Below are positions 885-64,000 of a DNA stretch of 64,000 nt, one piece after another. Location: NCBI GenBank assembly GCA_964016885.1, contig OZ024743.1:108004001-108068000 (forward strand). The letters are read 5' to 3'. Numbering within the stretch: the first letter of the stretch is position 1; every line of letters starts with the position of its first letter. A model generated the notes under the pieces. It saw only the letters and a list, made by a program, of their open reading frames with translations, searched no databases and was not told the origin of the DNA. The translations under genes were made by a program, and so were the position numbers. The DNA is from Eledone cirrhosa. Its lineage: Eukaryota.

Positions 885-952
<68 letters not shown>

Positions 953-956
<4 letters not shown>

Positions 957-1090
957 AACAAGTAAGTCCCCGACGGCTGAGCTCAAGCGGTTTCGACGGC
1001 TAATTCTGGAATTAGCCGTCGAAACGGCTTGAGTTCAGCCGTCGGGGTCTTACTTGTTCCTATTACCCACTCTACTACCCTAAGTATTGA
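953..1090 (+). mobile_element. Family A PLE-like hairpin, copy 1 (tail truncated)
   Basis: Palindrome 953-1062 with 2-nt loop at 1007-1008. Contains HHR 3' half GAAACGGC..GCCGTC GGGG. Tail TTACCCACTCTACTACCCTAAGTATTGA is shared with copies at 16771, 17928, 62944 and 63791. Confidence 0.8.
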
Positions 1091-1104
1091 TATATTTGTC
1101 AACG

Positions 1105-1166
<62 letters not shown>

Positions 1167-1186
1167 CGTTGACAAATATATCAATA
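1085..1186. repeat. 25-bp inverted repeat bracketing a (TA)n tract
   Basis: TATTGATATATTTGTCAACGAATTA (1085-1109), then (TA)n, then TAATTCGTTGACAAATATATCAATA (1162-1186). Confidence 0.85.
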
Positions 1187-2907
1187 TGCCTTTACATGTA
1201 GATATATTGCCCTTGGTATGACAGTGTGGTTTTAGATCAATGTAGGATAACTAGTATACTACAGAGCCGTTATAGTTATACGAATAACCAAAGTGTACTT
1301 AGAAATACATAGTTTTATTAGCTAACAGTGTTTCATCCATACACCATGGCAGGAATCTTCAGAGCTTATAAACATGAGTATATCAGTAGTTGCATGCTCC
1401 ATCGAGCTGCGTCACCAGAAGAAGGTTAAATGACCAGCAGAGGGGTCCCGAGGCTAGTGCTATATGGAAAAAGTCATAATACATGATGCACATAATGTCA
1501 TAACATTTCTTAAAAATTTAAAAATAAAAAATAAAAAATTAAAAGTTACACCAAAAATGTATCACTTATATGGTGCAATAGATGATGAAGAGGCTGGGAA
1601 AGGGTAGCAAGGGATGAGTTATGGTATTACTCAGCATGATCAGAAACAATCAGAAAATACAAGAAAATAACCAAAAAATAATAATAAAAAAGTACAAAAA
1701 TACAGGGATAAGAAAAGAGATAAATACAAAAATACAAAACAATTAATGAACAAAAAGCCAGGAAACCCACCAAAAAATATAAGGCAAAGCAAAGCGTGGA
1801 TGCATCTAAGCACAAGCATTTCAAAAGCGTGTACAGGCAGATCAAGAGAGTTTGCAAGCATGAGTCTGTGAAAAGAATTGTTGGTTAGCCGTAATGCAGC
1901 CTTACATGTATGATAGTCCATATGAGTGATGGTGTACTCCAAGTATATCGCCCTGTAATAGGTCGATTCTCCTTATCATATCCGCACCCCACGAACCACA
2001 TCGATATGTTCCAGTTCTAAACTCCAAGTGATATAACACTATTTTTCCAAAACCTATAACCAGGGGATTTATCCCCATATGCGGTCTGAGATATACACAT
2101 AAAATGTACAACAAAAAATAAAATAAGAGAAAGAAGGTACGACAAGTTAAAGAAATGTATGGCACATATACAGCCGGCACAGATGTGAGGAAATGGAAAA
2201 CATTCGGTCACATAATCCAACGTGCCAGGTGAAATTCACTGTATGTCCAAGTTGGCGCTCAGCCGATGTATCGCACCGCATAGAACTGTTCCACAGCAAA
2301 TACAAATCGTGATGGCAATCCACTCACACACAGATAAAAAGTGCGCACAGGAAACTCAGCTTCCAGAATCACATATGGCAGAATGAGCATATAATGTTAT
2401 AATAAAATTGCGGGTTTATTTTAGTGAGTGCAATTTTCTGTAGGATATATAGATATATATAAAAGGGACAACTCACAACCAAATCCATTTATGATAGCCA
2501 AGTTATTTATATTTCCGCCACGTGGTTTTCATTTAGATTATTAATCCCGAAGTGTGCAATCCATTCACAGTCGGGTGTGACTCCTCCTGGGTCGGCTGGA
2601 GTTCAATATCCAGTGCTGCACGTTGCCTTGAGTGTGGTTCTATAATTCATCAAAGCTGGAACAGAATTCTCCAACTAACTCCAAGTTTCAAAGATTCGAC
2701 TCTCGCGATTGACACACAGCATGATGTGCATCATGTATTATGTTTTTTTCCATATAGCGCTAGCCTCGAGACCCCCTGATGGTCATTTAACCTTGTTCTG
2801 GTGACGCAGCTCGATGGAGCATGCCAGTACTGATATACTCATGTTTATAAGCTCTGAAGATTCCTGCCATGGTTTATTGATGAAACACTGTTAGCTAATA
2901 AAACTAT
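1162..2907 (-). mobile_element. Family B PLE-like element with inverted ~163-bp pseudo-LTRs
   Basis: Arms 1309-1472 and 2745-2907 are reverse complements. The left arm extends by a tail to the (TA)n at about 1162. Each arm has an HHR motif followed by AATAAA. The 1.27-kb interior has no recognisable ORF. Confidence 0.75.
2850..2896 (+). ncRNA. Minimal type I hammerhead motif (mirror copy 1320-1366, minus strand)
   Basis: AGCT-CTGAAGA-TTCC..(G/T)GAT-GAAAC-ACT-GTT-AGCT. Helix I is AGCT/AGCT, helix II is partly decayed, triplet GUU. Confidence 0.6.
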
Positions 2908-16770: not shown

Positions 16771-16772
<2 letters not shown>

Positions 16773-17352
16773 CGAAGGAGTTGTGGTAAGGAACCAGATG
16801 GACCATAACGCACCAGAGTACTCAATACTTAGGGTAGTAGAGAGGGTAATATGATAAATTATGACCCCGACGGCAGAGCTCAAGCCGTTTCAACGGCTAT
16901 TTCTGGACTAAAGTAAGAGTTTTTTTAGTCTGGTAAATAAATAGCCGAACTTTTCAAAGGGTACTTTCTTATTTGGGAAGATTCTAGTTGTCAAGGGGTT
17001 TGGTCAAAATTTGTAGCAGACACAGAAAAGTCTATCATGGCAGTGGGTGCGGGGCGGGGGTGGCTGAACTTGCCTGTAGAACGATAGGGGTGTGGGTAGA
17101 GCCGGTCAATTCTAAGGTATGTGTATGAAAGTAGGCCAGAGAGGTAGGCGAAAACAGGTTTCTTTAGAAAAAGGAGGAGGGACGTTATAGAATTGGTAAA
17201 TCAAATTTTGATAACTACAATCTACCCATATAAGGAAGTACACCTTGAAAAGTTCGGCTATTTATTTACCAGACTAAAAAAACTCTTACTTTAGTCCAGA
17301 AATAGCCGCCGAAACGGCTTGAGCTCTGCCGTCGGGGTCATACTTTCTCATA
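16771..17352 (-). mobile_element. Family A PLE-like element, copy 2 (longest; two complete HHRs)
   Basis: Inverted arms at about 16849-16994 and 17209-17352 with a ~215-nt spacer. Tail 16771-16848. (TA)n on both sides. Confidence 0.85.
17236..17347 (+). ncRNA. Type I hammerhead ribozyme, U3-A8 variant with extended helix II (mirror copy at about 16855-16968, minus strand)
   Basis: Helix I AAGTA-CACC/GGGG-tca-TACTT. Core TTGAAAA 17245-17251. Helix II CGGCTATTT/AAATAGCCG with inner GACTAAA/TTTAGTC. GAAA 17311-17314. Helix III ACGGC/GCCGT. GUC triplet 17331-17333. Confidence 0.75.
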
Positions 17353-17371
17353 TATATATATAAATAAATAA

Positions 17372-17927: not shown

Positions 17928-18084
17928 AACAAAGGAATTGTTGTAAGGAACCAGATGGACCATAACGCACCAGAGTACTCAATACTTAGGGTAGTAGAGT
18001 GGGAAATAGGAAAAGGTATGACCCCGACGGGAGAGCTCCGTCGAAACGGCTTGAGCTCTGCCGCCGGGGTCATACTTTTTCCTG
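17928..18084 (-). mobile_element. Family A PLE-like hairpin, copy 3
   Basis: Same 78-nt tail as the other copies. Arms join at the GAGCTC of loop III. (TA)n on both flanks. Confidence 0.85.
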
Positions 18085-62907: not shown

Positions 62908-62943
<36 letters not shown>

Positions 62944-62947
<4 letters not shown>

Positions 62948-63131
62948 AACCAGTAAGACCCCGACAGCTGAGCTCAAGCCGTTTCGACGGCTAATTCTCA
63001 GAATTAGCCGTCGAAACGGCTTGAGCTCAGCTGTCGGGGTCTTACTGGTTCCTATTACCCACTCTACTACCTCAAGTATTGAGTACTTTGGTGCGTTATG
63101 GTCCACCTGGTTCCTTACCACATTTCCTTCG

Positions 63132-63133
<2 letters not shown>
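62944..63133 (+). mobile_element. Family A PLE-like hairpin, copy 4
   Basis: Perfect palindrome 62944-63054 centred on 62999. Tail 63055-63133. (TA)n on both sides. Confidence 0.88.
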
Positions 63134-63181
<48 letters not shown>

Positions 63182-63696: not shown

Positions 63697-63790
63697 TATA
63701 TATATATATATATATTCATATATACAAACATACAGAAATATATATATATATATATACATATATATACATATATCTATATATATATGTATA

Positions 63791-63982
63791 TAGGAGAAAG
63801 TATGAACCCGACGGCAGAGCTCAAGCCGTTTCGACGGCTATTTCTGGAGTAAATAGCCGTCGAAACGGGTTGAGCTCTTCCGTCGGGGTCATACTTGCTC
63901 CTATTCCCCACTCTACTACCCCAAGTATTGAGTACTCTGGTGCGTTATGGTCCATCTGGTTCCTTACCACAACTCCTTCGTT
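63791..63982 (+). mobile_element. Family A PLE-like hairpin, copy 5
   Basis: Palindrome 63791-63903 with loop 63844-63850. Tail to 63982. (TA)n on both sides. Confidence 0.88.
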
Positions 63983-64000
63983 ATATATGTATATATATAT

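What the first reader, a model, noticed from the sequence alone, without database searches (positions are those of the whole stretch)
63791..63982. Stereotyped geometry: apex at HHR helix II, short arm ending at a fixed TA
Seen: copies 1, 4 and 5 all turn around within a few nt of the same point, just 5' of the helix II 3' strand (AA(T/A)TAGCCG). All five copies end the short arm about 19-21 nt past the GUC, at a TA that merges with the target, leaving a ~78-nt tail. The GUC site is retained. Inference: reverse transcription of uncleaved RNA stalls or switches strand at the ribozyme's own helix II hairpin, so the ribozyme fold dictates a ~190-bp unit product. Alternatively the ~190-bp unit is itself a mobile mini-element.
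Basis: partly seen in the sequence, partly recalled or inferred. Interest (0 to 1): 0.75.

Follow-up and report, generated by a model that had tools for sequence, protein, structure and literature searches.

The report
Hairpin insertions of a Penelope-like retroelement
This ~190-base unit is one of thousands of small hairpin-shaped copies of a non-coding, hammerhead-like retroelement sitting in TA repeats, and its fixed ends and shared turning point are likely footprints of how Penelope-like elements copy themselves into both strands of the DNA.

Summary
Window 63790-63983 is an inverted repeat (54-nt arms, 93% complementary) plus a 79-nt one-sided tail, flanked by (TA)n. An exact 32-mer of the arm occurs 10,758 times in the 3.0-Gb genome. 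In two tail-anchored samples, 36 of 57 copies start the long arm at positions 827-843 of an ~890-nt non-coding parent. In a position-ordered sample, 52 of 60 seed arms end at 815-846.

The apexes are nearly all different (57 strings in 63 units), so these are independent events, not an amplified unit. The two arms end independently (Spearman 0.02). In 24 of 63 units the tail-less arm reaches further, which excludes simple snap-back. Exactly one tail occurs in 50 of 52 two-armed units.

Inverted 5'-truncated copy, one-sided tail and (TA)n target are published hallmarks of Penelope-like elements, whose protein extends both nicked strands from two RNA start sites. The "hammerhead" has the right three-way junction, GAAA and GUC, but a U3/A8 core. 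No Rfam model matches it.

Why cDNAs end in helix II (stall, or an RNA 5' end) is unresolved. No autonomous partner was found.

The parts
63790..63848 (-). Copy 5, short (tail-less) arm. It is the antisense copy of parent positions about 832-890. Its outer end ATAGGAG abuts (TA)n.
63849..63850 (.). Copy 5, apex filler (GT) between the two arms.
   Evidence: junction logic
63851..63904 (+). Copy 5, long arm, body part (parent about 837-890). It holds the helix II 3' strand AAATAGCCG, GAAAC, the helix III hairpin, GTC at 63882-63884, the helix I 3' strand, and the end ..CTCCTAT (start site A).
63905..63983 (+). Copy 5, 79-nt tail (TCCCCACTCTACTACC...CCTTCGTTA), present on this arm only and followed by (TA)n (start site B).
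62943..63134 (+). Copy 4, same build: short arm 62943-62998, 1-nt filler, long arm 63000-63055, tail 63056-63134.
952..1090 (+). Copy 1: short arm 952-1009 (including CTGG), long arm 1010-1063, and a tail cut short at about 27 nt (1064-1090).
16771..17353 (-). Copy 2: tail 16771-16850, long arm to 17206 (parent 506-890, holding the whole hammerhead-like domain at about 16851-16985), and an inverted tail-less arm at 17208-17353 (parent 747-890).
17928..18083 (-). Copy 3: tail plus a long arm from parent 858, and a tail-less arm from parent 843. Its apex lies in helix III, the second and smaller hot spot.

Best explanation
The ~190-bp unit is one insertion of a very abundant, non-coding retroelement into a (TA)n microsatellite. 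It was likely made the way Penelope-like elements insert: two antisense cDNAs, each probably primed from one of the two nicked target strands, would start on one RNA at two sites 79 nt apart, most often end in helix II of the element's hammerhead-like fold, and then be joined head to head.

Shown directly:
- The anatomy: inverted arms, a fixed outer end at ..CTCCTAT, one tail, and (TA)n flanks.
- The ~890-nt non-coding parent.
- The hot spot at parent positions 830-831.
- The independence of the two arm ends, the uniqueness of the junctions, and the one-tail rule.

Inferred:
- A Penelope-like reverse transcriptase / GIY-YIG protein does the work.
- The arm with the tail starts at site B (the tail's end) and the other arm at site A (..CUCCUAU).
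- Both cDNAs are evicted or stall inside the 3' strand of helix II, by RNA structure or a bound protein.
- One cDNA then uses the other as template (a template jump or microhomology annealing), giving junctions of about -7 to +8 nt.
For: 1. Family and parent. Full copies span about 890 nt with a common 5' end and hold no ORF of note. The exact 32-mer of the arm occurs 5,466 + 5,292 times, against 0 for the reversed control.

2. Penelope-like hallmarks, read in the papers.
- An inverted 5'-truncated copy at the 5' end, a 30-40-bp tail often at one end only, and (TA)n targets (PMC8557442, passages).
- The purified protein cleaves and extends both strands, starts at two adjacent internal RNA sites with the tail lying between them, is predicted to be a dimer, and has a hammerhead just upstream that is not needed for insertion (PMC11167929, main text parts 1-2).
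- Here, (TA)-like flanks were found in 20 of 32 left and 23 of 27 right junctions tested.

3. One tail per unit. This held in 50 of 52 two-armed units of the position-ordered sample (1 with two tails, 1 with none) and in 9 of 10 unselected by-catch units. Independent choice of start site could give at most 50%.

4. Two cDNAs, not one.
- R and L are uncorrelated (Spearman 0.02, p 0.87, n 63). Mean |R-L| is 5.4 against 5.8 when permuted.
- The tail-less arm is the longer one in 24 of 63 units.
- Ten of 60 loci pair a normal short arm (827-843) with a long arm that stops in the tail or at the junction. Five of these lie at tail positions 29-35, where TCTGG/CCAGA microhomology can be read.
- L064, L066 and L067 are joined at CCCC/GGGG.

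5. Same source RNA. The arms agree at the subfamily-marker sites: 864 (55 of 55), 877 (54 of 55), 881 (54 of 55) and 884 (51 of 55).

6. Independent events. 57 distinct apex strings in 63 units, the commonest shared by 3.

7. Hot spot in helix II. The histogram peaks at 830-831. The MFE fold is a three-way junction with helix II at 784-845. A second, diverged family has 3 of 4 arm junctions at the same position, 12 nt 5' of its GTCGAAAC-like motif (GTCGAAAC, GTCAAAAC, GCCGAAAC or GTCGAAAT in the four units).

8. The genome is rich in Penelope-like elements. There are 10,596 first-look GIY-YIG candidates. L113 encodes RT plus a C-terminal GIY-YIG domain and ends in a TA-rich repeat.
Against: - No autonomous partner was found. 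None of 30 GIY-YIG loci or 10 long-ORF Penelope-like loci shares the body or tail, apart from by-catch mini units. Mobilisation by a Penelope-like protein therefore rests on resemblance alone.
- No tandem or pseudo-LTR arrangement of this family was seen.
- In vitro, the studied protein showed no difference in start site between top and bottom strand (PMC11167929). The strict one-tail rule is therefore not predicted by that work.
- Helix II is only moderately stable (-13.9 kcal/mol). Ends fall after the lower stem has already been opened, which is not where simple structural pausing is expected.
- 1-17 nt of templated sequence beyond 831 occurs in many arms, so the 'stop' is a zone (about 814-843), not a point.
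- Post-insertion deletions in palindromes could produce some of the asymmetric units.
- Arms differ by a mean of 4.7 of 48 nt, so many copies are old and junctions may have mutated.
- The samples are 57 + 60 loci of about 10^4. The third sample comes from 25 Mb of one contig.
Confidence: 0.55

Rival explanations
1. Same two-cDNA insertion, but the apex marks a pre-existing RNA 5' end rather than a stall. On this reading most template RNAs would already begin near 825-836, through processing, trimming back to the protein footprint, or an internal start of transcription. Both cDNAs would then run off the end and be joined by end-to-end template jumping.
For: - Many junctions are blunt or near-blunt palindromes with 0-3 extra nt, for example CTGGAC|GTCCAG. 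Thirteen of 63 have zero filler. Such joins resemble those expected from run-off plus template jumping; the listing turned up a paper on template jumping by non-LTR reverse transcriptases (PMC8857657, listing only, not read), and the link to these junctions is my inference.
- Both arms share one distribution (Mann-Whitney p 0.31).
- 87% termination (52 of 60) is very high for a structural pause.
- Single, partner-less copies also start at 827-837 (L148, L175, L188, L190, L191, L201).
Against: - Ends spread over about 814-843, with templated sequence beyond 831 in many arms. No single 5' end fits.
- No cleavage motif sits at 830/831. The hammerhead-like site is at 870/871.
- Long copies with identical tails exist in the same young subfamily (several tails 100% identical to copy 2's).
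- No RNA run was available to test it.
Confidence: 0.3
2. Single-cDNA snap-back. One cDNA would stall at helix II, fold back or switch to its own nascent strand, and copy back to a fixed TA.
For: - The arms are inverted copies with a small or absent loop, and the hot spot lies at a hairpin.
- The arms agree at the subfamily-marker sites.
Against: - The tail-less arm extends further 5' than the tail-bearing arm in 24 of 63 units, and in 16 of the 42 units with unambiguous junctions. A copy cannot contain what its template lacks.
- R and L are uncorrelated.
- Units exist with a full short arm but a long arm that stops in the tail (10 of 60).
- Nothing in the model explains why copy-back would stop at ..CTCCTAT.
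Confidence: 0.08
3. The ~190-bp hairpin is itself a mobile mini-element, copied as a unit, or a MITE / foldback DNA transposon with terminal inverted repeats and TA target duplications.
For: - Very high copy number.
- Fixed outer ends of both arms next to TA.
- A few apex strings recur: up to 4 of 69 and 3 of 63.
Against: - Nearly every unit has its own internal junction. Units sharing an apex differ in arm markers (L003, L028, L029).
- A graded series of 5' truncations leads up to an 890-nt parent.
- Partner-less truncated copies exist.
- The one-sided 79-nt tail lies outside the 'terminal repeat' in 50 of 52 units.
- L050 and L052, which share everything, are a duplicated locus.
Confidence: 0.05

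Closest known systems
Insertion architecture of Penelope-like elements (PLEs): inverted 5'-truncated copy, one-sided 'tail', microsatellite targets (Craig et al. 2021, PMC8557442; Frangieh et al. 2024, PMC11167929)
   Same: - Head-to-head inverted 5'-truncated copy.
- An extension present at one end only.
- (TA)n targets.
- A hammerhead-type motif just upstream of the 3' end.
- Fixed 3' ends that fit two internal start sites.
   Different: - The tail is 79 nt rather than 30-40.
- The element is non-coding (~890 nt).
- No pseudo-LTR or tandem form was seen, and no partner was identified.
- Most copies (about 55-65% in my samples) are ~190-bp hairpins with both arms ending in one ~15-nt zone. 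I did not find this described (searches).
PLE minimal hammerhead ribozymes, including the U3-A8 core covariant (Cervera and de la Pena 2014, PMC4209133, passages read)
   Same: - Type-I topology with a large helix II.
- A palindromic helix III loop (GAGCUC).
- U3/A8 in place of C3/G8.
- 'Dual motifs on opposite strands 100-700 bp apart' and many solitary truncated motifs.
   Different: - Helix III here is a stable 5-6-bp hairpin.
- Helix II is about 60 nt long with an internal loop.
- No Rfam model scores it.
- Cleavage is untested.
- The mini units keep only the 3' half of the motif.
L1 twin priming (Ostertag and Kazazian 2001; recalled, not read here)
   Same: The second nicked strand primes a second cDNA. 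The two cDNAs are then joined, often at microhomology, giving a 5' inverted segment.
   Different: Twin priming gives an inversion of adjacent, non-overlapping segments. Here the two arms copy the same stretch (an inverted duplication), and the two start sites are fixed.
Animal non-LTR retrozymes (bioRxiv 10.64898/2026.07.22.740005, abstract and outline seen)
   Same: Short, non-autonomous, hammerhead-bearing sequences proposed to derive from PLE pseudo-LTRs.
   Different: Retrozymes are head-to-tail tandem arrays thought to pass through circular RNA. These units are dispersed single hairpins with no tandem form seen.

Membership tests
Penelope-like element (insertion signature) | Inverted 5'-truncated copy adjoining the 5' end | tested here: met
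   52 of 60 position-ordered loci are two-armed head-to-head units. All five window copies are too.
Penelope-like element (insertion signature) | Optional 'tail' extension at one end only, bounded by two fixed 3' ends | tested here: met
   Exactly one tail in 50 of 52 two-armed units. The ends lie at ..CTCCTAT and ..CCTTCGTTA. The length is 79 nt, not 30-40.
Penelope-like element (insertion signature) | AT-rich or (TA)n target | tested here: met
   TA-like flanks in 20 of 32 left and 23 of 27 right junctions tested. Two units lie in (AG)n.
Penelope-like element | ORF with telomerase-like RT and GIY-YIG endonuclease, in the element or in an identified partner sharing its 3' end | tested here: not met
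   The element has no ORF of note. None of the 40 RT/GIY-YIG loci examined shares its body or tail. Only a small part of about 10,600 candidates was examined.
Penelope-like element | Pseudo-LTRs / partial tandem copies | tested here: not met
   No head-to-tail body-body junction appears in any BLAST table. Neighbouring units in one microsatellite are separate insertions.
Hammerhead ribozyme | Three helices around a junction, with a single H17 between helix III and helix I and an A15.1-U16.1 closing pair | tested here: met
   The MFE fold of L081:1501-1700(-) shows helix I AGGAAGUACCCC/GGGGU..ACUUUCU, helix II, helix III ACGGC/GCCGU, and the single junction nucleotide C. The fold's z-score is only -1.58.
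Hammerhead ribozyme | Core C3 U4 G5 A6 N7 G8 A9 ... G12 A13 A14 (definition from PMC7151607) | tested here: not met
   The core reads U U G A A A A (main form), UUGACAA (L063) and CUGAGAA (L071). G8 is A in all 21 long copies. U4, G5, A6, G12-A14 and GUC are kept in the main form, with scattered single-copy changes. CTGANGA is absent on both strands. A U3-A8 pair is a reported PLE variant (PMC4209133).
Hammerhead ribozyme | Match to a curated covariance model | tested here: not met
   No hammerhead family was listed at gathering score or in the E-value searches. The models also missed hammerhead-like cores in other PLE loci of this genome, so their sensitivity here is doubtful.
Hammerhead ribozyme | Self-cleavage after H17 | not testable with these tools
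   Most arms run through GUC870, so the templates were uncleaved there. A minor cluster of short-arm ends lies at 866-875 (L045, L058, L064, L066, L067), but it is confounded by CCCC microhomology.
L1-type twin priming | Inverted and direct segments are adjacent, non-overlapping parts of the RNA | tested here: not met
   Both arms cover the same positions (about 831-890) in 33 of 60 loci.
MITE / foldback DNA transposon | Copies share one internal sequence between terminal inverted repeats | tested here: not met
   57 distinct internal junctions in 63 units. A truncation series leads to an 890-nt parent.
Non-LTR retrozyme | Head-to-tail tandem repeats each carrying a hammerhead | tested here: not met
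   No tandem arrays were seen in the loci examined.

The most novel reading that the evidence does not exclude
Helix II of the element's hammerhead-like fold is a programmed template boundary for a telomerase-related Penelope-like reverse transcriptase, comparable to the template-boundary helix of telomerase RNA. A dimeric particle makes two coupled cDNAs from one RNA, one from each of two start sites and one on each target strand. The ~190-bp hairpin is then the default product of integration rather than a failed one. The strict one-tail rule and the shared stop would be in-vivo read-outs of that coupled, two-stranded mechanism, which has not been resolved for this class of retroelement.
Probability: 0.2. 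Interest if true: 0.7.

Novelty: new variant of a known kind. Interest (0 to 1): 0.45.

Why it matters
How Penelope-like elements complete integration is still open. The only in-vitro study read here ends at first-strand initiation on both strands and leaves 'additional steps yet to be validated' (PMC11167929). The 2021 survey calls the tandem/inverted structures and tails unexplained features (PMC8557442).

This family offers thousands of natural end-products with three clean regularities:
- one tail per two-armed unit;
- two independently placed cDNA ends falling in one ~15-nt zone of helix II;
- junctions of -7 to +8 nt, or at readable microhomologies.

These regularities constrain models: two cDNAs on one RNA using different start sites, not snap-back. 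They also point to a short RNA (parent about 757-890 plus tail, roughly 215 nt) as a compact substrate for experiments.

On the practical side, about 10^4 near-perfect 110-bp palindromes inside (TA)n tracts matter for assembly, for repeat annotation (hairpin-like hits to microRNA models appeared), and possibly for genome stability.

Tried and rejected
- Rfam at gathering score on the window and on 20 Penelope-like loci gave nothing. E-value scans gave only hairpin- or microsatellite-driven hits to microRNA and plastid models, all below their gathering scores, which I take as chance.
- The G855/T865 'arm asymmetry' in the first sample looked like evidence for two different template RNAs. I now read it as a selection artefact: the query carried both private variants and only the long arm was queried. 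The two variants are unlinked among hits and rare in the tail-anchored samples.
- 'Collision with a particle at site A' as the cause of long-arm ends at tail positions 29-35 was dropped, because TCTGG/CCAGA microhomology explains them.
- Annealing of two long cDNAs through the natural helix II stems predicts an apex equal to the natural, imperfect hairpin (CTATTTATTTACCAGAC...). Observed apexes carry the perfect reverse complement (CTATTTCTGGAC...), so this was rejected.
- A splice-acceptor-like UUUAG at 827-831 was considered. Ends lie 1-2 nt on the wrong side and no shared upstream exon follows.
- Helix I covariation between subfamilies gave one compensatory pair in L071 and mismatches in L070 and L101, which is inconclusive.
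- The search for the autonomous partner failed.
- The tail of copy 4 used as a genome query returned nothing.
- RNA evidence: no RNA holder was listed.
- Earlier-findings look-ups returned nothing.
- Supplementary figures of PMC11167929 and PMC4209133 were not opened. They may show start sites and hammerhead variants that bear on the comparison.

Full report
**What is at the coordinates.**
Window 63790-63983 is an inverted repeat with 54-nt arms, 93% complementary and 7 nt apart. On the right side only, a 79-nt extension follows. The whole unit is embedded in (TA)n. The window holds five such copies. Copies 1, 4 and 5 turn within about 5 nt of one another. Copy 2 has much longer arms and copy 3 turns about 20 nt further 3'.

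**The parent.**
The middle of copy 2 led to an element of about 890 nt with a common 5' end in several loci. It has no ORF of note. Below, positions are counted on one full copy (the reverse strand of L032:1412-2301).
- CCGTCGAAAC starts at 843.
- GTCCAG is 831-836.
- GTC is 868-870.
- The body ends ..CTCCTAT at 890.
- The 79-nt tail (TTACCC/TTCCCCACTCTACTACC...CCTTCGTTA) is optional. Full copies exist with it (L034/L081, L040, L070) and without it (L032, L039, L041, L042).
- An exact 32-mer from 846-877 occurs 5,466 + 5,292 times in the 3.0-Gb genome, against 0 for the reversed control.

**Is the geometry stereotyped?**
My first genome sample was biased, because its query began at the apex. 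I therefore took three other samples.
- Samples A and B were anchored on the tail alone (tables).
  - Of 57 copies, the long arm starts at 827-843 in 36, at 850-860 in 6, at 875 or later or inside the tail in 9, and before 815 in 5. One was other.
  - L052 was dropped as a duplicate locus of L050, and L075 as the query itself.
- Sample C was the first 60 loci in genome order on contig C1 that hold the exact 32-mer. I classified them from the table.
  - 33 are hairpins with both arm ends at 815-846.
  - 10 have a normal short arm joined to a long arm that stops in the tail or at the body/tail junction.
  - 3 are asymmetric, 6 have long arms, 7 are single arms, and 1 is other.
  - 52 of 60 seed arms end at 815-846. 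A uniform spread predicts about 4%.
- At nucleotide level, 63 units with both anchors give a mode at G831/A830 for both arms. R lies in 829-837 in 49 units and L in 46.

**Independent events or an amplified unit?**
- Apex strings are almost all different: 61 distinct in 69 units and 57 in 63.
- Units that share a string differ in arm markers (L003, L028, L029).
- Arms of one unit differ by a mean of 4.7 of 48 nt, against 6.6 between units. Six of 66 units have identical arms, and several tails are 100% identical to copy 2's. The family is therefore of mixed age with recent members.
- I conclude the units arose separately, each with its own junction.

**One cDNA or two?**
- The inner ends of the two arms are statistically independent. 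Spearman is 0.02 (p 0.87). Mean |R-L| is 5.4 against 5.8 after permutation.
- The tail-less arm reaches further 5' in 24 of 63 units, and in 16 of the 42 units with unambiguous junctions. A strand copied back from the tail-bearing cDNA could not do that.
- In 10 of 60 loci a normal short arm (ending at 827-843) is joined to a long arm that never left the tail.
  - In L145, L146, L152, L179 and L192 the join falls at tail positions 29-35.
  - The 3' ends of the two antisense cDNAs would be complementary there (TCTGG/CCAGA).
- In L064, L066 and L067 a 20-nt short arm is joined to the tail at CCCC/GGGG.
- These joins are what annealing or template jumping between two separate antisense cDNAs would give.
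- The arms agree at the sites that distinguish subfamilies: 864 (55 of 55), 877 (54 of 55), 881 (54 of 55) and 884 (51 of 55). Both cDNAs therefore come from the same RNA or the same source variant.

**The tail rule.**
Exactly one tail is present in 50 of 52 two-armed units of sample C (L171 has two, L173 none). The same holds in 9 of 10 unselected by-catch units. If each arm chose its start independently, at most half would have exactly one. The two priming events are therefore coupled.

**Comparison with what is known.**
- Craig et al. 2021 (PMC8557442, passages) list the following as typical of Penelope-like elements:
  - strong 5' truncation;
  - an inverted 5'-truncated copy at the 5' end;
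  - a 30-40-bp tail, often at one end only;
  - (TA)n targets for Naiads.
- Frangieh et al. 2024 (PMC11167929, main text parts 1-2) report several relevant results.
  - A purified Penelope-like protein cleaves and extends both strands.
  - It starts reverse transcription at two adjacent internal RNA sites, and the tail is the sequence between them.
  - A hammerhead lies just upstream but is not needed for insertion, so uncleaved RNA is the main template.
  - The protein is predicted to dimerise.
- The unit here fits this point by point. Site A lies after ..CUCCUAU and site B at the end of the tail. One arm starts from each.
- (TA)-like flanks were present in 20 of 32 left and 23 of 27 right junctions tested. 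Two units lie in (AG)n.
- The genome holds 10,596 first-look GIY-YIG candidates. L113 is an RT plus C-terminal GIY-YIG element ending in a TA-rich repeat.

**What does not fit, or is missing.**
- I found no partner sharing this 3' end among 40 such loci.
- I saw no tandem or pseudo-LTR forms.
- The in-vitro work saw no strand difference in start-site use.

**The 'hammerhead'.**
- No Rfam hammerhead model matches, even at E<=10 on the 136-nt domain alone.
- CTGANGA is absent from the full element on both strands.
- Yet the minimum-energy fold of 757-890 plus tail is a three-way junction with hammerhead topology.
  - Helix I is AGGAAGUACCCC / GGGGU..ACUUUCU.
  - A 10-nt strand, UUGAAAAGUU, sits where CUGAUGA belongs.
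  - Helix II is long: CGGCUAUUU...AAAUAGCCG, with an upper stem GACUAAA/UUUAGUC.
  - Then come UC-GAA, and helix III (ACGGC-UUGAGCUCU-GCCGU) closed by A-U.
  - A single C precedes helix I.
- Across 21 long copies the box reads [C/U]-U-G-A-N-A-A-G in most copies, with N varying and a few single-copy changes. This is the hammerhead pattern with A8 for G8 and, in the main form, U3 for C3.
- Cervera and de la Pena 2014 (PMC4209133, passages) describe exactly such a U3-A8 covariation in hammerheads of Penelope-like elements. They also describe large helices II, small palindromic helix III loops (here GAGCUC), and dual motifs on opposite strands.
- I therefore read it as a hammerhead-derived fold of the Penelope-like type. 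Its activity is unknown. It is not a member by the canonical core (definition from PMC7151607).
- The mini units keep only its 3' half.

**Why helix II?**
- Ends peak 3-4 nt into the 3' strand of the upper stem, after the lower stem has been opened.
- A second, diverged family has 3 of 4 arm junctions at the same position, 12 nt 5' of its GTCGAAAC-like motif, although 6 of those 12 nt differ.
- Helix II is only moderately stable (-13.9 kcal/mol).
- I favour eviction or stalling of the cDNA end by the re-forming hairpin or by a bound protein. Run-off at pre-existing RNA 5' ends (processing or trimming) explains the near-blunt junctions and the 87% stop rate about as well.
- No RNA data were available. 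This part is inference.

**Verdict.**
Its fixed short-arm end, tail, inverted copy and TA target are the known signature of Penelope-like insertion, here in a new, very abundant non-coding family. The following were not found in print in my searches:
- the sharp common stop of both cDNAs in helix II;
- the near-absolute one-tail rule;
- the dominance of ~190-bp hairpin products.

These features usefully constrain a mechanism that is still unresolved.

Noticed in passing
window 1085-1190: Directly after copy 1's shortened tail lies a separate 24-nt inverted repeat, ATTGATATATTTGTCAACGAATTA ... TAATTCGTTGACAAATATATCAAT. Its arms flank a (TA) run of about 50 nt. The origin is unknown. It could be another hairpin-type insertion, or a palindrome that grew around the microsatellite.
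   Followed up: no
L079:1990-2215, L083:1925-2120, L102:1010-1085 and nearby, L054:1370-1490: A second, diverged family has the same build: ...GTTCGGATCTAG-GTGTCGAAACGGCCGGAGCTCAGCCGTCGAGGTCCTGACTC..CCTAT plus a related tail. In 3 of 4 units the arm junction lies at the same position relative to the GTCGAAAC-like motif.
   Followed up: partly
tail, e.g. window 63947-63983: The tail holds an ATG followed by an open frame to its end (ATGGTCCATCTGGTTCCTTACCACAACTCCTTCGTTA). In the studied anole element the start sites lie inside the ORF's 5' end, so this may be a relic of a partner's start codon.
   Followed up: no
parent 833-837 and tail 33-37 (e.g. L081): CCAGA in the internal loop of helix II is complementary to UCUGG in the tail. 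The same 5 nt serve as junction microhomology in L145, L146, L152, L179 and L192. A long-range RNA contact is possible but untested.
   Followed up: partly
L112:1035, L125 (- strand, 331), L129 (- strand, 812): Other Penelope-like loci carry canonical-looking cores, for example CTGATGA-TGTTGCA-GAT-GTGCAAC-GAAA. Rfam did not report L112's at gathering score; L125 and L129 were not in that scan. Rfam's sensitivity to these minimal motifs therefore looks low.
   Followed up: no
G000 genome-wide: There are 10,596 first-look GIY-YIG candidates and several long open RT/GIY-YIG frames (up to 1,096 codons at C1:83.81 Mb). The genome is very rich in Penelope-like elements of several families.
   Followed up: partly
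L160:437-563, L186:365-576: Two hairpin units sit in (AG)n rather than (TA)n. Their short arm starts GGGGAAA.. directly after the AG run.
   Followed up: no
L077:1341-1580, L057, L076, L068, L011: Some apexes contain extra short duplicates of arm sequence. In L077 a whole second sense segment (855-890 plus tail 1-15) lies between the arms, as if there had been several template switches in one event.
   Followed up: no
L059:1655-1851 (as oriented), L060: A (TA) run lies between the body end ..CCTAT and the tail (L059), or between the short arm and a second, inverted tail fragment (L060). Either the TAT|TA junction expands as a microsatellite or separate insertions landed there.
   Followed up: no
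L050 and L052: Two loci on different contigs (C1635, C370) are identical across the unit and its flanks. This points to a segmental duplication or an assembly redundancy.
   Followed up: no
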